Part shown: positions 3,524-56,386 of the stretch, in pieces
How the letters are laid out: each line of letters begins with the position of its first letter
Numbering within the stretch: the first letter of the stretch is position 1
NCBI GenBank assembly: GCA_951406725.2
Contig: OX597821.1
Span: forward strand, 52,080,001 to 52,144,000
Reading direction: 5' to 3'
Length of the DNA stretch: 64,000 nt
Source of the DNA: Octopus vulgaris
Taxonomy: Eukaryota
The notes under the pieces: generated by a model
Told to the model about the DNA's origin: nothing
Databases searched by the model: none
The model's input: the letters and a program-made list of their open reading frames with translations, nothing else
Position numbers and translations under genes: made by a program

Positions 3524-3625
3524 ATTTATGTATGTAAGCATGTATGTACGTGTAAACACACACTCACACACACACATATATATATTACGGAGATGTTCTT
3601 GAATAGCAAGTGTGCTGAAACAAAA

Positions 3626-3870
3626 ACAATTGCACTTTAGAAGGTGTTTATAAGCCATTTAAAGCACACACAAAATCGTTAGATTCACTTCAACGTTCAA
3701 ACTTAAATTGTGAAAAAATTTAGTGATGCATCACGAAATTTTTTCAGTGAACAGGTCGCGGTTTCAAAGTGAAGAAAATATTTTGACAATTTAAATTTAA
3801 ATGCTGATGTGAACCTAACGATTTTGTGTGTTTTTAAAAGGCTTATAAACACCTTCCACGTTGCAATTGT
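3626..3870. repeat. Fold-back (palindromic) element built from a putative PLE terminus
   Basis: The left arm ACAATTGCAC..AGAAGGTGTTTATAAGCC..CAAAATCGTTAG.TTCAC is the reverse complement of the right arm. The symmetry axis is in GTGATG|CATCAC (3723-3734). A related single-arm copy lies at 13241-13332. Confidence 0.8.
3744..3786 (+). ncRNA. Minimal type I hammerhead-like motif, G3-C8 core variant
   Basis: UCA-GUGAACA-G-GUCGC GGUUUCAAA GUGAA-GAAA-AUAUUU-UGA. Stem I is UCA/UGA and stem III is the palindrome AAUAUU. The same core occurs in the copy at 13271-13317. Confidence 0.5.
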
Positions 3871-11330: not shown

Positions 11331-13270
11331 GCTATGTTGACGGAGGTCCATTCTTATCAGAAGGATTAGTAAGAAAAGTGTGATGTTGTCTCTTTACCAC
11401 TAGAGGTCAGAAAGTAATATTATACCTGGTTTGCAGGTGTCGTAAGAAACGGGAACGAAAAATCCATGAAAAAAAATCCAGAGAGGAAATTTTGATCGTT
11501 AGAGTTATGTATCTTGGAAAGGGATCAGGCAGTGTCAAAACAGTGTATGAGGTAAATACCTGTACAGTAGGGGCGGGAAGTGGCGATGAGCAGGGTCAAT
11601 CTTGAAATCATGTGTGGATGTGTATATACATATGTATGTATTTATTTGTAATAAGCTGGGTGTGCCAAACTTTATGTCAAAAACTCAGACTGTGGTGATG
11701 AGAAAAACCGATGGTGGAAGCTCCTAGCGTTTATATTCAGGGTTCGGTCCTCCAGGATTCAAGGACATAATCTGTATTCATGAGGGCAAGACCGGAAATT
11801 TTGCTCTTACAGTTTGAATTAGTATCCGAGTGAAGAGAATTCTTCAGTATAATGCTTTTCTCAGCCACATAGAGACTGCATCTCTCACTGCCAGAGGACT
11901 AAGTTTTGTACTTTTCCAGTACACTCCACATTATGTTGTGATCTGTGAGCTTTCTTCCAATGATCATATGTGCCTGATACGGCTGTAACATTTTGCGTCC
12001 ACTGGATATTGAAGGAGGACTTGTGATTACTAAATTTGGTTCTGAAGGGCACATATGTATATGTGAGTGTGCGTGCGTGTGTGTGTGTGTATGTAAATAT
12101 AATATATTATATGCATATAAATATAATATGATATAATATGATATAGGATAACAATATAATATACATATTTCTATGTCCGTACTTATGTTTACCGGCATAA
12201 TCCGGTAAGAAGATATTTAGCTTAATGTCAAGCCACTTAACCTCGTAATACGATAGATGGAGATCAATATTTAATAAGTGGTATATTGAAATAAGTACAT
12301 GAGATCGATATTATCGCAGAAAAAAGCCCTTAAAGGCGGTGCCCCAGAATAGTCGCAGTTCAATGTCTGAGACAAGCAAGTTACCGAATAAAAGGCCGGG
12401 TAACGTGTGAAAGAACAGCGGTTATAGAAGGTGTGATAGTTTAATGGTGTGATATAATATTGCAATAGACTAATGAGGTGTGAGTCAGAGTGCTTGTGGG
12501 GTACGATGGTGGGGATGGTAGTGCAAGTGGGAGAGGGCAGAGTATATACGAGGAGAGACAGAGAGTTAAAGAGATAGATAGGGAGAGAGAGAAAGAGAGG
12601 GAGAGAGAGAAAGAGAGGGAGAGAGAGAAAGAGAGGGAGATAAGAGGAGTGAATACAAAATTGGAGGTGAAAAATGTTAGAAGTGGAAGATAAACTAAAA
12701 GAGTTTATCTTTTATAAAATAGTTGTTCTATATGTCTAGACGTGTAGAGGTTGCAAGCCGGTGTTGACGGCACAGTTAGTACGGTGTCGGGCCATTTAGG
12801 TGGAGTGAGGTGAGAGGTAGTCAATACTACAGACGCTTCATTAGCAATGGAAAGAGTGAACGCCAGAGAATATTGTGCATGTTATTCCTACAATTAAATC
12901 AACACGGAACCAACAAAAGAGCTCTCATATTCGTTCACGCATCATGCCTGAAATAACAGCCAAATAACTCCAAAATGACGCTCTACAACCTTAGAAAAGG
13001 ACAAATTTGTTACTGTGGTCGAGGTGCAATGATAATAAAACAAGAAAAAAAATAAAGGTTTGTTGATAAAGGAATAGATGGGGCTGAAACCAACAATAAT
13101 AACTATAACAAGCAGTTTAAGATTGGCACAAAAATAAAACCGAAATACAGGTATTTTGGGAAATAAGTGTGTATTTTGAGAATATATGGTTACAACACGT
13201 CTGTCAAATTATTTGTAACACACACGCATACATATATATAAAATTCACTTCAACATTTAAATTTAATGTG

Positions 13271-13317
13271 TGTCAAAATATTTTCATTGCTTTGAAACCG
13301 CGATCTGTTCACTAACA
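13271..13317 (-). ncRNA. Minimal type I hammerhead-like motif, G3-C8 core variant (second copy)
   Basis: Minus strand: UGUUA-GUGAACA-G-AUCGC GGUUUCAAA GCAAU-GAAA-AUAUUU-UGACA. Stem I is 5 bp with one G-U. Confidence 0.5.
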
Positions 13318-13735
13318 AAACTTCGTGCTGCCTTTTGTATTTGATATAGACATATATACGTACTTGCATACATCTATATATGACACATACCCATACATGC
13401 ATGCATATACAACCTCATATACACACACATGCACAAGTACGCTAAAATATACATATATCTACACATATATTCATACATACTAATCTATATGCAATCATAA
13501 GACTATATATAATTACATATATGTAGTTCAGTATCATGCTTCTCAACATGTATGTACGAATTTCTTCATGTAAATGAGAGAAAGGGGTGGTTATAGATGG
13601 GTACTCCCGAGTGGAATCTGGTTGTTACCCCATTCGGATTTACGGTTGAGGGTAGGTTTGTATTCCAGTATACAGACAACTTCGGTGACTTGTCTCCGCA
13701 TTGCATCAGTGGTATGTGTAGATAGGATATCTAAC

Positions 13736-14145
13736 CTAAGTCTTCCCACAGAGCCACCGTGGCAGTTTACAGCATGCTGATAAAAGATGGAGTTTGGTTT
13801 TTTTCTTAATGTAGCTGTCTAGGTGTTCTTCGAACCTATCATTGATGCTCCTAGTTGTCTCACCAACATAGGACTCTGGGATAACCGCGCAAGTCCCTTT
13901 CTGGTACTTAATCTGGTATACAGTGTTTTTCTTTTTGCAGTTCAAATGTGAGTGTGTAGAACATACTACATAATTATTCCGACACGTGATTTTATCAAAT
14001 GGGTATGACTTACTTAATACAGATTTGATAATTCTACATGTCTTTTGTACAACTTTGATTTTGAGGCCAGTTGCACGTAGAATTTTCTTAAATGCCCCCT
14101 CCACCCTATTCCAGAACTTGCTGCGGTATAGGGGGCATATGCCGT

Positions 14146-14148
<3 letters not shown>
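13736..14148 (-). mobile_element. Penelope-like element fragment (Cys-rich linker plus GIY-YIG endonuclease)
   Basis: CRNNYVVCSTHSHLNCKKKNTVYQIKYQKGTCAVIPESYVGETTRSINDRFEEH contains the VY..YVGET.R..R..EH GIY-YIG signature. Confidence 0.85.
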
Positions 14149-14195
<47 letters not shown>

Positions 14196-22566: not shown

Positions 22567-24071
22567 ATTTAAACATTGATTTTGCAATCTTTCTTCATCA
22601 GAACTGTTTTCTTCCCTGTAATTCATCTGTTTCACTTTTTCACTGACTGCCATGTTCAAATAAGAATGAAACTACTTGATCAGTCCTGTTCAAATTCTTA
22701 CGGGATTGTTTCCAAGAAAGAGAACATTTGTTCTTCCTGGATTGAGTGGAAACATAAATGAAGGTAAAGGTGAAACTGTAGCAAATAATACTACAATTCC
22801 AGTTGTGCAAGAGACACATTAACCCTACACACATCTATGCTACCACACGATAAAGGAAGGCCAAATCTAGTGTTTCTTAGAAACATTCTAATAAAACTTT
22901 GAACATGACTGATCAAGTACTTTAATTCCCATTTGGACACCAATAATCGAAAGGGGCAGCTTTAATTCATCTAAGGTTCAAATCTATGATCAGTACAAGT
23001 TGACATCTAAATTCCTCTTTGGCATTTTTACATTCATTTTTCTAAATTCAAACCAAGCTAAATCTCGTAGATTACCATTGCAGTGACACATTTCAAGTGC
23101 TGTGAACAGGAAAATCTCTAAAAGTAAAAATAAAATAATTCTATAGCTTGTATTTCCGATTCTTCCAGTAAAGCCCAGCTGATTATACAGCAATTCCATC
23201 ATGATGGTTATTATTCCATTCTTCAGAATTTAGTCGCTTTTCGATACGTAATTGTCAACGAAAATGTCGATGGATGATGTAACACATTTTCAATTCTAAG
23301 AAGACATTTGGAATCCATTTAGAATTTGCCAATATTTAAATAAATTACACATTAACCACATTCCACCACCACAACCGCCACCACATCCTCCTCCTCCTCC
23401 TCCTACTACTACTACTGCAGTTGCTGCTACAGCCTCCGGCTCCGTCTCCACCGACACCACCACTACCACTACCACCATCGCCGCCGCCTCATTTTTCAGA
23501 ACTACGCAACAAGGAATGAAATAATCACTTGCATAACATTGATATTCTCTCTATCATAGTCAACCAGTAGAGTTCTGAAGAACTCAGTTATTGTTGGAAT
23601 TTTATTTTGATGTTGATATGTATATATATATATATATATATATTTGTATGTGTGTTTTCTTAATCCGTCTTATGTTAACTGTAATAAATTGGATTTATAT
23701 TGCTTTTAGTTCTAATGTATTCTATTTTAATGTTACACTAATATATTAACTTACACACGTGTATCCATCCATCCATTTATCTGTCGAATTACATACATAC
23801 ACACAAATATATATCTCTTTATATTTACATATATATGTACATATTTACGTACATATTTATGTGAGTGTATGTGCGTGAACATAGATGTATACGTATGTGT
23901 GTATATATATGAATATAGTTGTAAATGAACGTATATATATGCATATCTACATAATCTTACACATACACACACACATTTATATAGACATCTAAATATATGT
24001 ATATATAGCTATACATACAAATACACACAAATAAGTATGTCGTATACATGTGTGTGTGTACTTTGTGAGTA

Positions 24072-28638: not shown

Positions 28639-28696
<58 letters not shown>

Positions 28697-28698
<2 letters not shown>

Positions 28699-28896
28699 AT
28701 GTTGGTACATAATTATTGCGGCTTTTTTTCAATAAATTTTATTCAATAAAAAATTTAAACAAAACGCCAAACAGAAATTATAGTAGATAGTGAATATGCT
28801 CCGGAATAATCATTTAAAGATGTTTTTGTTAAATGTTATTGTTTTTGTTGAATCAAATTTATTGAAAAAAGCCGCAATAATTATGCACCAACTTTA
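28697..28896. mobile_element. 200-bp mariner-derived MITE
   Basis: ~55-bp inverted termini TAATGTTGGTACATAATTATTGCGGCTTTTTT / TAAAGTTGGTGCATAATTATTGCGGCTTTTTT, flanked by TA. They resemble the Hsmar1/MADE1-type TIR (TTAGGTTGGTGCAAAAGTAATTGCGG). Confidence 0.8.
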
Positions 28897-28964
28897 TATA
28901 TATACATATATATATATATGTATGTGTGTGTGTGTGTCTGTGTGTGTGTGTGTCTGTGTGTGTG

Positions 28965-32617: not shown

Positions 32618-33336
32618 CAACAACGAAGAACATACCAGCAACAGACCCCCACTCCAAAGAAGAAAATAGGTCTCTTCCCAACTCACACCACACAGTCATA
32701 TCACGCGGAGAAAAAACGGTGAGGAGCCTAAAAGGCAAAAATGCTACTGATGGAAAGAAAGAAAAAGAAAACAAAAAGACGCCAACGACAACCCCTTCAA
32801 AATTAGGAGATCTGAATACACGGAAAGCGATTTTGAGGAAGGTGCACCAACATAATCGTAAACAGCAGCTGTACCTGTACTATCAGCATCATCACCTCCA
32901 TTCCCAGAACCCGCCATTACAACAACGATCTGAACTTAATACACATACACAACAAAAATCTCATCTCTCACTACAACGCAAGCAAAAAAAAAAAAAAAAA
33001 AAAAAGAAATAGGTATCATTACACGGCTATAAACACAATCAATGAAGAACAAATGTATCGCATACACCAACATACAAACGTCACACGCAATAATTATATG
33101 ACATTAACTAAAAGCATTGCAGCACACACACACAAATCATGTAAATATCGCAACATACATATAAAAAACTAAACACTGCAGCGGAGTAGAACACTTTAGA
33201 GTAGGAGATTTAATAATAATAATAATAATGATAGTAATAATATTTTCTGTATTATTCACTAGGGAAAAACAAAAAGAAAAAAAAAACCTAAAAAACCAAC
33301 AACTTTTTGTGAATCCTTAATGAATAATACAGAAAA

Positions 33337-33401
<65 letters not shown>

Positions 33402-35153: not shown

Positions 35154-35366
<213 letters not shown>

Positions 35367-35372
35367 ATTATT

Positions 35373-35636
35373 ATTATAATTTAGGGTATCTACGAGATAC
35401 CGCCATGCTGAAAATAGCAGCCAAGATCTGACTCTAAAACCAAATTAAATGTTCATATAGCACCATTTCTAAATGCAAAGCCAGAAATACGGGATCTCGA
35501 ATTATCCAGTAATCTTTTACTAGTTTTATTTTGTCTTCTCTCCTTGTGCTATATAAACATTTAATGTGGTTTTAGAGTCAGATCTTGGCTGTTATTTTCA
35601 GCAAGGTGGTATCTCGTAGATATCCTAAATTATAAT
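35373..35636. repeat. MITE-like fold-back with ~90-bp inverted arms
   Basis: 35373-35463 (ATTATAATTTAGGGTATCTACGAGATACC...GATCTGACTCTAAAACC...ATATAGCAC) is the near-perfect reverse complement of 35546-35636, with an ~82-bp spacer. Confidence 0.85.
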
Positions 35637-35944
35637 TTTAATAATTATTACCTTTGGAGGTATTTATTTCCATGCTGGCCACTTGATAAGATCATTATTT
35701 AATTTGAATTAACGATCTTAACCTTATTTATATAAATTTAAATTTATTTCGTCACTGTATTTACTGCGGTGATGTTTTAGCCATATCACAAGATGAAGTT
35801 ACAAAGCGGGCAATCTAAACTGGTCGTGTTGCATACGTGTATATATATGTATTTATACGTTCATATATGTAAGTATTCGTATGTTGTATTATATATATAT
35901 GTGCATTTAAGTTTCTCTCTGCGTATATTCCACTGATGAGGCAA

Positions 35945-37846: not shown

Positions 37847-38123
37847 CACACGAGAGTAAGCATATAAATTGAAACAAGGTAGAAAAAAATAGTACTCAAA
37901 TACCAGAAGTAGAATAATATGCTTTATTAAAAAGCATCAAAAAATCACAAAAACTGTTACTCAGATTCTAAACAAAACTGTCTGACGAACGGGAACGTGA
38001 AACTCTGAGTAACAGTCTTTGTGATATTTCTGCTGCTTTTAAATAAAGCATATTATTCTACTTCTGGTATTTGAGTACTCATTTTTCCACGATGTTTCAC
38101 ATTTACGTGCTTACTCTGGTGTG
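37847..38123. repeat. Fold-back element with ~118-bp inverted arms around a hammerhead
   Basis: 37847-37965 (AGAGTAAGCA...AGTACTCAAATACCAGAAGTAGAATAATATGCTTTATT...CTGTTACTCAGA) is the reverse complement of 38004-38123. Confidence 0.88.
37977..38016 (+). ncRNA. Canonical minimal type I hammerhead ribozyme
   Basis: ACUGU-CUGACGA-ACG GGAA CGU-GAAAC UCUGA GUA-ACAGU. All core nucleotides are present, stem I is 5 bp, stem II is 3 bp with a GNRA loop, and stem III is the quasi-palindrome ACUC-U-GAGU. Predicted cleavage is after GUA at 38011. Confidence 0.85.
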
Positions 38124-40045: not shown

Positions 40046-40860
40046 AAACCAGCACTATGGCTACGATATGCTAATGACACCTTTATACTCTGGCCCCACC
40101 AGGGAGATGCACAAGAACTGTTAAATCATGTCAACTCAATAAAGCCATCCATACAGTTTACAATGGAAAAGGAAAAAGACATTCCTAGACGTAATAACAC
40201 GCACCAAATATGGATTCAGGACATCCGTATACCGCAAGCCGACCTTCACTGGACGATATCTCAACTTCAATTCCCACCATCCATACAATGTAAAGAGAGG
40301 GATTGATCAGTGCCTAAAACATTGTACAAAAAATATAAGTAGCGATCGTGATACACATCACGAAGAAATGATCAAGCTCAATAACGATCTGTTAGGCAAC
40401 AACTACGCCAAAAGTATACTATCCACGCCAATTATGAAGAAGAGAGAGAGGATGAGGCTGATAAACTCCACAGTCTGTTTACCCTATGTGAAAGGCCTCT
40501 CCGAAAAGATACAAAAGATATGCGACATCAAGACAGTATTCAAGAGTAATACAACACTTCGCTAATATCTCCTTCGAGTAAAACCACCAATAGAAGAGAA
40601 TATGACCAAAGACTACGTGCACTCCATCCCATGCAGTAGTGGTAGGTTACACAAAGGCGAAACATGCCACCCCCTCAAAATAAGGGTAGGCGAATATCGC
40701 AAAACTGTGACACGAGGAGATATTGATAAATCGGGTATAACTGATCATGTATGGTAAAATGGAGACCACCTATCCCTGTGGGATGAAGTTAAAATAATAG
40801 AGAGAGAACACCACTAGAAAATACGAAAATTAAAAGAAGCAGCACATATGCTAGAACAGA
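40046..40860 (+). mobile_element. Penelope-like retroelement fragment: RT C-terminal motifs, thumb and GIY-YIG
   Basis: KPALWLRYANDTFILW (RYVDD motif decayed), IQFTMEKE..FLDV, TSVYRKPTFTGRYLNFNSHHP, LPYVKGLSEKI and VHSIPCSSGRLHKGETC. Frameshifts and stops are present. Confidence 0.9.
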
Positions 40861-54770: not shown

Positions 54771-56386
54771 ATCTATCTTTTATATTTTGCTTGTTTCATC
54801 CACTGGACTGCAACCATACTGGGACATCACTTTGAGGGGTTTAGTCGAACAAATCGACCTATGTACTTATTTTGAAGTCTGGTACTTATTCTATGTGTCC
54901 CTTTAGCCTAACTGCAATGAAATTCGCACACAGAACGCAGAGTCAAAATTGACCTACATTATTCCGTAGGTCGAAAAAAAAAATTAATGTACCAGCCGTG
55001 ACCGTGGTTGATTTAACCAACTATTCTTTCCCTTAATAACACGTTGCCTTGTGTCTGTCTAATGAGAATAATTAAATTATATACCTGCGACAGAAAGACG
55101 CTGGTGTGTTTTTTTTAATAGTTTAATATGCTAGTGTCTAACAAAATGTTTACAGAGTCTAATGAAATAAGATTTAAAGAAAATACTGTAAAACTAACGA
55201 CAGGATCAAATGCAAAAGAAAAACAAACTTAAAAACACTAACAAAACTAAAATCAACAAACTATAAAAAATGAAAAAGAAAACAGCGAATATTTACAGTC
55301 AATATAATCAATCTGATTTTATTGATTTCTGGACAAAATAAATGACGGTCGGTGAAGAAACTGATTGGAATTTAAATGATGATGTGGGGTCCAATTTTTA
55401 AAATAAAATGAGTCCGGATTTATCAACCAGTGAAGGATGTATAACATTTTGAAACACACGTTAATTATCACTTCTAGCCATTTAAGTATCATACTTATAT
55501 ATCATACATATACATATGTATATACACTATTGAAAGCATGATACTGTGGTTTACGGTAGAAAAAAAATTCTCACAGACGTAAAACACTCAAAACGAGACG
55601 AATCAAAATTGTTCTAAGTGTGATGCAAGATATATATTTCGAACTTTTTGGACTTTATCAATGACGTGTACGTACTGGCCACATGCCTTGACGAAATTTT
55701 CCCCTTTCAATATATAGGAAACAATTGAATTATACACTCACTGCTATTGTGAATAGCCACCAGGCTGAGCGAAAACCCAGTGTACGCAAATAAAAAAGGA
55801 TTAAATTTAAATCAATATTTATGTTCCATACTTAACATACTTACGAAGCAAACCACCGCAGCATGCCTTTTAACAGTGTATATCCAGTATGATACATTGA
55901 TAGCTATTTTATTCTAACACTGTCTGAATTGCGTACATCGGATTTTTATTCAACCCAGCAGTCTATTCGCAACAACAGTGAATGTATAATTCACTGTCTC
56001 CTATATAAGGAGGGACAAATTTCGTCCAGACACGTGACTAGTGGGTACTTATTATTGATATGGCCTGAAAAGGACGAAATGCTGCTGGCTTTCTTGTGAA
56101 TTACTGCTAAGGCAATTCCATTTCGCCTCGCTTCGGTATATACTGCGTTTCACACAATATATATCTATGAAGAGATTTTATCCATAGAATGGCCATAGCA
56201 TCATGGTTCTCAACAATGTCTATATATTGCATGGGATATATAGATGGCTTTTTTATTTGCTGCTCTTTCAGTCGCGTACACTAAATTTATACTGATGCAT
56301 CTCTCTCTCTCTCCCTCCCTTTGCATATAGGCATACATATACGTACATACAAACATATTGATATACATCTACACCTACCTACCTAC

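What the first reader, a model, noticed from the sequence alone, without database searches (positions are those of the whole stretch)
3744..3786. G3-C8 swapped hammerhead core, conserved in two diverged copies
Seen: GUGAACA in place of CUGAnGA here and at 13271-13317 (minus strand). Both have one extra G before stem II, GAAA, a palindromic AAUAUU stem III and a UUU cleavage triplet. The copies differ in stem II (GUCGC/GUGAA vs AUCGC/GCAAU) but keep the core. Inference: the double change C3G+G8C is family-wide and compensatory, which would be a rare natural variant.
Basis: partly seen in the sequence, partly recalled or inferred. Interest (0 to 1): 0.72.

Follow-up and report, generated by a model that had tools for sequence, protein, structure and literature searches.

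The report
Swapped-core hammerhead in Penelope retroelement
These are two worn-out copies of the end of a jumping gene whose family, with thousands of copies in this animal genome, carries a hammerhead-shaped RNA in which two paired core letters have traded places; it likely still cuts itself weakly, but cutting is untested and most genomic copies run straight across the predicted cut site.

Summary
The motif is real and family-wide, but the two window copies are decayed. Both are fragments of the terminal repeat (pLTR) of a Penelope-like retroelement: longer copies put an RT + GIY-YIG ORF about 1 kb upstream, and copy 2 has its own endonuclease fragment at 14149-13618. A family pattern has 7,807 matches; 96 of the first 100 read G3-C8. 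Intact copies fold into stems I and II; the window copies do not, and their stem II differences are decay, not covariation. The extra base, palindromic stem III and U17 are ordinary for Penelope hammerheads; only G3-C8 is unusual. It maps to one branch and survives loop and stem changes. One sister family has C3-G8; another mostly has unpaired C3.A8 or U3.G8, which weakens the case for strict pairing. 86 of 100 copies span the predicted cut; 45 start about 21 nt before the core, often with an extra G (likely a capped start). Engineered G3-C8 partly rescues a Penelope hammerhead (PMC11167929); I found no natural case in print. This scan reported the variant before, in this and other genomes.

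The parts
3740..3790 (+). Hammerhead-type motif, copy 1 (stem I 3740-3746/3784-3790; G3 3747, C8 3752; extra G 3754; stem II 3755-3759/3769-3773; palindromic stem III 3777-3782; predicted cut after 3783). Decayed: pair 10.1-11.1 and one stem I pair broken
3725..3870 (+). Sense pLTR copy without tail; begins at the family's usual 5' end
   Evidence: 85% to a young element's 3' end; 5'-end map
3585..3728 (-). Inverted pLTR copy joined head to head, carrying the ~55-nt tail (about 3585-3625); the hammerhead interior is deleted from this arm; palindrome at the junction (3711-3746)
13265..13319 (-). Hammerhead-type motif, copy 2 (G3 13312, G12 13285), decayed
13243..13331 (-). pLTR fragment holding copy 2, cut short at its 3' side
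13618..14149 (-). Broken GIY-YIG endonuclease end of the element's ORF, upstream of copy 2 on the same strand (56% and 77% amino-acid identity to a young copy in two pieces)
   Evidence: tblastn E 4e-70; 78% nucleotide identity

Best explanation
Both sites are decayed copies of the terminal repeat of a Penelope-like retrotransposon family whose members carry a minimal type I hammerhead fold with the 3-8 core pair reversed to G-C, which likely remains a slow self-cutting RNA that would need a second copy or the element's own protein to work. Shown: family, architecture, ORF linkage, family-wide G3-C8, intact stems in young copies, copies spanning the cut site. Inferred: a promoter in the 3' UTR starts a capped RNA about 21 nt before the core (TATA-like run at -30, TCA+1 start, extra G in copies); the element's RT/endonuclease copies this ~200-nt RNA, mostly uncut, into AT-rich DNA, often as head-to-head pairs with a tail on one arm; stem III forms only between two copies through the AAUAUU palindrome or with protein help; G3-C8 keeps the core geometry at reduced rate, so cutting after U17 would be occasional and not needed for insertion.
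For: ORF linkage: 1025-aa open frame with RT motifs and GIY-YIG (Pfam E 1.8e-5), motif ~1 kb downstream on the same strand; window copy 2 has its own endonuclease fragment. Penelope hallmarks: inverted truncated partner, tail on one arm, (TA)n flanks (described in PMC8557442, PMC3846280). Fold: young copy has stems I and II as its minimum-energy structure, z -3.05; 83 of 85 descriptor hits in 130 loci are G3-C8, 1 hit in 30 shuffled windows. Constraint: old versus young masters differ at 0 of 42 ribozyme positions, 5 of 9 loop II positions and 11 of 153 others (Fisher p 0.021; 0.064 without the loop), while the endonuclease differs at 56 of 461 sites; the one common change inside, A1.3 to G (12 of 79), keeps a U.G pair. 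An older relative (family C, 67-71% identical) has G3-C8 with other N7, loop II, stem I and a shorter palindrome; main + C form one side of a 100/100 branch. Chemistry: engineered C3G/G8C partly restores cleavage, including in a Penelope hammerhead that is protein-assisted and dispensable for insertion (PMC11167929). 5' ends: 45 of 100 at -65..-55, extra G in 31 of 53.
Against: No cleavage data. 0 of 100 copies start exactly at the predicted cut and 86 of 100 span it, so the genome holds no footprint of cutting. Sister family B is C3.A8 in 20 of 30 and U3.G8 in 6 of 30 with good stems, so this clade can amplify without a Watson-Crick 3-8 pair. The swap is one event; family C was found with a pattern that forced G3 and C8. 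The constraint test is borderline and the whole pLTR is conserved. The AAUAUU duplex is predicted at only -0.2 kcal/mol, and cofolding two copies gave other dimers, not the double hammerhead. No Rfam hammerhead model matched a young copy at E up to 10. Pfam RT match is weak (E 0.055). The cap reading is inferred from DNA only; the same site also reads as a splice acceptor.
Confidence: 0.6

Rival explanations
1. The motif descends from a Penelope hammerhead but no longer cuts; the two-stem fold is kept for another job (protein binding, RNA stability or promoter-proximal sequence) or by inheritance, and G3-C8 is a neutral drift product that happens to pair.
For: No copies begin at the cut; family B carries C3.A8 in 20 of 30; in the one tested Penelope system catalytic mutants insert normally and no RNA ends map to the cut (PMC11167929); after two random changes a Watson-Crick pair is not improbable; constraint outside loop II is not significant (p 0.064).
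Against: U4, G5, A6, A9, G10.1-C11.1, G12, A13, A14, A15.1 and U16.1 are the majority letters in the main family and families A and B and recur in family C although loops, stem I and stem III changed; three families keep different self-complementary stem III words; G3-C8 persists from family C to the youngest copies.
Confidence: 0.34
2. The 285-bp fold-back is a MITE (DNA transposon with long terminal inverted repeats) and the hammerhead likeness is accidental.
For: Long inverted arms at 3626-3721 and 3776-3870; no Rfam hammerhead match.
Against: Inner ends of the arms vary from copy to copy, a tail sits on either one arm, flanks share no fixed duplication; long copies run into an RT + GIY-YIG ORF; a sister family has a canonical CUGAAGA core at the same place.
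Confidence: 0.02
3. Side rival for the 5' pile-up only: the site 21 nt before the core is a spliceosomal 3' splice site (branch-like ACUAAC, pyrimidine run, AG), and copies start there because spliced or splicing-derived RNA is the template.
For: The sequence fits an acceptor; D. virilis Penelope has an intron ending at hammerhead stem I (PMC4209133).
Against: Copies share only one extra G upstream and nothing further that could be an exon; they keep the AG itself; a TATA-like run lies at -30, as described for rotifer pLTRs (PMC3846280).
Confidence: 0.15

Closest known systems
Minimal type I hammerheads of metazoan Penelope-like elements (Cervera and de la Pena 2014, PMC4209133; main text parts 1-2 of 4 and supplement file 2 parts 1-2 of 3 read)
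   Same: Location in the pLTR; one extra base between 9 and 10.1; G10.1-C11.1; short palindromic stem III (6-nt palindrome as in D. virilis); U17 common, a UUU triplet in the oyster example; thousands of dispersed and inverted copies.
   Different: G3-C8: among the 56 aligned representatives I read 53 C3-G8, 2 U3-A8, 1 U3.G8 and no G3-C8. Extra base is G (published consensus H; G in 1 of 56). Stem I is longer (7 bp).
Natural U3-A8 core covariants (Perreault et al. 2011, PMC3088659, section 8 read; Schistosoma Cercyon elements, PMC4209133)
   Same: Natural change of both partners of the 3-8 pair.
   Different: Those are two transitions; here two transversions reverse the pair.
Engineered C3G/G8C hammerheads, including the anole Poseidon (PAc) hammerhead (Frangieh et al. 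2024, PMC11167929, parts 1-2 of 4 read; review PMC8495972, passages)
   Same: Same base pair; partial rescue of cleavage; uncut RNA is the main insertion template; tail explained by two RT start sites.
   Different: Laboratory mutant, not natural; in PAc the ORF starts inside the hammerhead, which I could not check here.
EN+ Penelope-like elements with C-terminal GIY-YIG (structure as in Craig et al. 2021, PMC8557442, passages; Arkhipova et al. 2013, PMC3846280, passages)
   Same: RT then GIY-YIG in one ORF, inverted 5'-truncated partner, tail on one end, microsatellite targets, ~200-bp pLTR with TATA and initiator-like motifs; CX3CX2C linker fits the Neptune-type motif.
   Different: Tail is ~55 nt rather than 30-40; DKG reads DKSG; clade not established by a tree.

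Membership tests
Penelope-like element (EN+) | One ORF with RT followed by GIY-YIG endonuclease | tested here: met
   1025-aa frame, GIY-YIG E 1.8e-5; RT motifs and match to another Penelope-type RT E 2e-9; Pfam RVT_1 only E 0.055; no PDB sequence match
Penelope-like element (EN+) | Inverted 5'-truncated partner and tail on one end | tested here: met
Penelope-like element (EN+) | Direct pLTR-ORF-pLTR tandem | tested here: inconclusive
   None of the 10 long loci examined had a same-strand pLTR upstream of the ORF; the copies seen were 5'-truncated or inverted
Penelope-like element (EN+) | Clade (Neptune, Nematis, Poseidon) by RT tree | not tested
   Only the linker motif was noted
Minimal type I hammerhead of PLEs | Core U4 G5 A6 A9 and G12 A13 A14 A15.1, U16.1, H17 | tested here: met
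   Each is the majority letter in 74-78 of 79 copies
Minimal type I hammerhead of PLEs | C3 and G8 identity | tested here: not met
   G3 71 of 79, C8 68 of 79; canonical C3-G8 in 1 of 7,807 family-pattern matches
Minimal type I hammerhead of PLEs | Watson-Crick pair between 3 and 8 | tested here: met
   G-C complementary by sequence; formation of the pair in 3D not testable
Minimal type I hammerhead of PLEs | Stems I and II with G10.1-C11.1, extra base before stem II | tested here: met
   Met in family majority and young copies; not met in the two window copies
Minimal type I hammerhead of PLEs | Palindromic stem III allowing a dimer | tested here: inconclusive
   Palindrome present; predicted duplex -0.2 kcal/mol and cofold did not give the double hammerhead
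Minimal type I hammerhead of PLEs | Self-cleavage 3' of N17 | not testable with these tools
   No assay; no genomic 5'-end peak at the site
Rfam hammerhead families | Covariance-model match | tested here: not met
   None among the 150 listed of 254 window matches or the 5 matches on a young copy
MITE / TIR DNA transposon | Fixed termini and target-site duplication | tested here: not met
   Variable inner ends, asymmetric tail, unrelated flanks in 30 loci
Non-LTR retrozyme | Tandem direct repeats each with a hammerhead | tested here: not met
   Copies seen are single or head to head and link to a coding ORF

The most novel reading that the evidence does not exclude
G3-C8 is a natural, active but throttled hammerhead core, fixed once and kept through successive waves of a still-young Penelope family in several related species; with its sisters (C3-G8, U3.G8, C3.A8) it forms a natural series of 3-8 pair states in one scaffold, and the capped ~200-nt pLTR RNA that carries it is retrotransposed uncut in thousands of copies, so the swap may tune how much RNA survives to be copied.
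Probability: 0.3. Interest if true: 0.65.

Novelty: new variant of a known kind. Interest (0 to 1): 0.45.

Why it matters
Descriptor searches that fix CUGAnGA or UUGAnAA would miss this core, so hammerhead counts in animal retroelements are probably low. A natural G3-C8 family would complete in nature a base-pair swap known only from engineered mutants, and the four related families give ready constructs for the open question of what Penelope hammerheads do, since cutting seems unnecessary for insertion. The chemistry itself is not surprising, and the two window copies are ordinary dead fragments.

Tried and rejected
Rfam scans: no hammerhead match. Descriptor scan of the window: 0 hits. Within-family compensation at 3-8: rejected; 23 double changes among 7,807 matches are 6 A-U, 1 U-A, 1 C-G, 4 U.G and 11 mismatches. 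A G8 subfamily as an intermediate: not found; 11 G8 copies need 7 changes on a rough tree of 56 rows. 5'-end peak at the cut site: none. Spliced copies: no shared upstream exon; no splice-like joint in four laid runs. Expression: no RNA holder listed on record, no evidence either way. Two other repeats caught by the G3-C8 pattern (L311/L329/L339 type and L319/L325/L328 type) lack stem I or III and were dropped. ORF 5' end and a full pLTR-ORF-pLTR unit: not found. Two hand-picked alignments each had one row on the wrong stretch or strand and were not used for counts. Papers not held: Lunse et al. 2017, Hammann et al. 2012 (75), Martick and Scott 2006 (91), Przybilski and Hammann 2007 (97); supplement file 1 of PMC4209133 was not searchable (89); figures of PMC3088659 not visible. 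Any of these, above all the ~150,000 variants I recall from Lunse et al., could hold a natural G3-C8.

Full report
Observation. The two match at 84% over 88 nt. The window is AT-rich, microsatellite-dense DNA from a 2.8-Gb genome; an octopus is my inference, not a tool result.

What the copies are. Copy 1 sits in a fold-back: arms 3626-3721 and 3776-3870. A genome search gave 2,706 candidates, 40 scored. In 30 aligned loci the inner end of the inverted arm varies, a ~55-nt tail lies on one arm only (either one), and flanks are often (TA)n. This is the layout described for Penelope-like elements (PMC8557442, passages; PMC3846280, passages). Walking upstream led to a GIY-YIG frame about 1 kb before the motif on the same strand (Pfam E 1.5e-5). 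It has at least 150 scored matches among 8,462 candidates, and one locus holds a 1025-aa frame with RT motifs (Pfam RT only E 0.055). Head-to-head arms up to 99% identical suggest recent activity. Window copy 2 has its own broken endonuclease fragment at 14149-13618. So the motif is in the pLTR of an EN+ Penelope-like element, not in a MITE.

Is G3-C8 family-wide? Yes. With positions 3, 7 and 8 free, a family pattern has 7,807 matches (control 0); 96 of the first 100 are G3-C8. A shorter pattern gave 7,447 matches, 92 of the first 100. Among 100 copies chosen by an anchor 3' of the ribozyme (8,811 matches), 67 of the 79 that reach stem I are G3-C8 (a few of the rest are alignment run-ons at fold-back junctions). 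Contigs from four runs under four coded organism labels list no variant at 5% or more at G3 (7943) or C8 (7948) of L126; depth there is low and RNA status is a guess.

Fold. The family majority has stem I UUUGUCA/UGACAAA and stem II GUCGC/GCGAC. A young natural copy folds so as its minimum-energy structure (-15.4 kcal/mol, z -3.05; an old copy z -1.93). The window copies do not (z +0.51, +0.42); copy 1 has lost G10.1-C11.1. Their stem II differences are private decay, so they are not evidence of conservation. A descriptor with any Watson-Crick 3-8 pair found 0 hits in the window, 1 in 30 shuffles, and 85 in the 130 loci then held (overlaps not merged), 83 of them G3-C8. Rfam models did not match.

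Is it compensatory? Within the family, no signal: 23 double changes, 8 Watson-Crick, 1 back to C-G, and G8 copies are scattered. That is expected of dead copies. Between masters there is some. Old and young masters differ at 56 of 461 endonuclease sites, 34 in third codon positions, yet at 0 of 42 ribozyme positions against 5 of 9 in loop II and 11 of 153 elsewhere (p 0.021; 0.064 without the loop). Related families were found through. Family A is C3-G8 in 27 of 30, with a weaker stem I, and one of its loci has an endonuclease remnant 38-54% identical. Family B has good stems but C3.A8 in 20 of 30, U3.G8 in 6, U3-A8 in 2 (chosen by likeness to a C.A copy). Family C (about 11 loci, 67-71% identical to the main family) has G3-C8 with C7, another loop II, stem I GUGUYG/UGACAC and palindrome AAUU, but was found with a pattern that forced G3 and C8. 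A tree of 29 copies puts main + C on one side of a 100/100 branch, also without the ribozyme columns. The swap is thus one old event that has persisted; family B shows that this clade can spread without a Watson-Crick pair.

How it likely works. Mapping 5' ends of the 100 anchored copies: 45 start at -65 to -55 from the predicted cut, about 21 nt before G3; 5 extend beyond -70; 86 start 8 nt or more before the cut; none starts exactly at it (three arms within 5 nt). Seven of the 100 are near-copies of one re-amplified fold-back. A binomial test, run with 46 rather than 45, gave p about 2e-22. Where copies begin at AGAUG, the base before is G in 11 of 23 (anchored set) and 20 of 30 (other sets), against a templated C or T and 18% background G. 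With a TATA-like run at -30 and a TCA start, I infer a capped transcription start whose cap G is copied (cap copying is recalled from LINE work, not from a call). The ~200-nt RNA from this start to the tail would be reverse-transcribed mostly uncut. This agrees with the anole Poseidon element, whose hammerhead cuts only with protein, is not needed for insertion and is partly rescued by C3G/G8C (PMC11167929). I therefore read the motif as a slow, dimer- or protein-dependent ribozyme (0.6), with a non-cutting structural relic as the serious rival (0.34). Folding gives little support for the dimer.

Comparison with print. In Cervera and de la Pena 2014 the extra base, palindromic stem III and low dimer activity are standard; their 56 representatives include U3-A8 and U3.G8 but no G3-C8. 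Perreault 2011 reports natural U3-A8 only. Full-text searches found G3-C8 only as an engineered variant (PMC3884650, passage; PMC8495972, passage; PMC11167929). An Octopus repeat-annotation paper has no 'hammerhead' or 'ribozyme' in its main text (PMC13282606). Also seen: PMC2377424, PMC6765202, PMC6466107, PMC2920678, PMC10085705 (passages) and bioRxiv 10.64898/2026.07.22.740005 (part 1 of 5); none added a natural case. Four key papers were not held, so absence from print is not secure.

Earlier scan notes report this variant twice in this genome and in others. My tests agree on family and core, and differ on the sisters: one note says they keep C-G or U-A, whereas my family B sample is mostly C.A and U.G.

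Verdict. Real, family-wide, a new variant of a known kind; chemistry foreseeable from engineered mutants; activity untested; window copies dead. Interest 0.45.

Noticed in passing
L242, L278, L279, L281, L282, L287, L304 (G000 C1): Seven of 100 anchored copies share one identical fold-back junction and a shared repeat after the tail: a fold-back of this family that seems to have been re-amplified as a unit.
   Followed up: partly
L171-L200 (family B): Related Penelope-type end with good hammerhead stems but C3.A8 (20 of 30) or U3.G8 (6 of 30); both are one step from C-G and could be wobble-type pairs; stem III AGGACU could self-pair with tandem G.A.
   Followed up: partly
window 3710-3721 (inverted arm of copy 1): The inverted arm lacks the hammerhead interior from about G3 to the start of the 3' strand of stem I, as if reverse transcriptase or repair skipped the structure.
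   Followed up: no
window 13345-13570: The 3' UTR between the endonuclease fragment and copy 2 looks partly inverted and shorter than in young elements.
   Followed up: no
L091:927-3368: A different Penelope-type ORF (RT and GIY-YIG, one stop between them) with its own inverted partner lies just upstream of a member of this family; its 3' end gave no descriptor hit.
   Followed up: partly
window 40143-40565 (+), 34377-33820 (-), 60841-60338 (-): Open frames that by eye resemble a Penelope-type RT thumb region, a non-LTR endonuclease region and a mariner-type transposase start; not tested against libraries.
   Followed up: no
window 22653-22939, 28670-28923, 33211-33368, 35361-35648, 37847-38123, 55636-56080: Several other fold-back elements of 150-450 bp, possibly other Penelope pLTR pairs (self-alignment).
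   Followed up: no
L088 (-) near 2635 and L073 (-) near 205: Single descriptor hits with canonical C3-G8 and with U3-A8 cores and 8-nt palindromic stem III, unrelated to this family.
   Followed up: no
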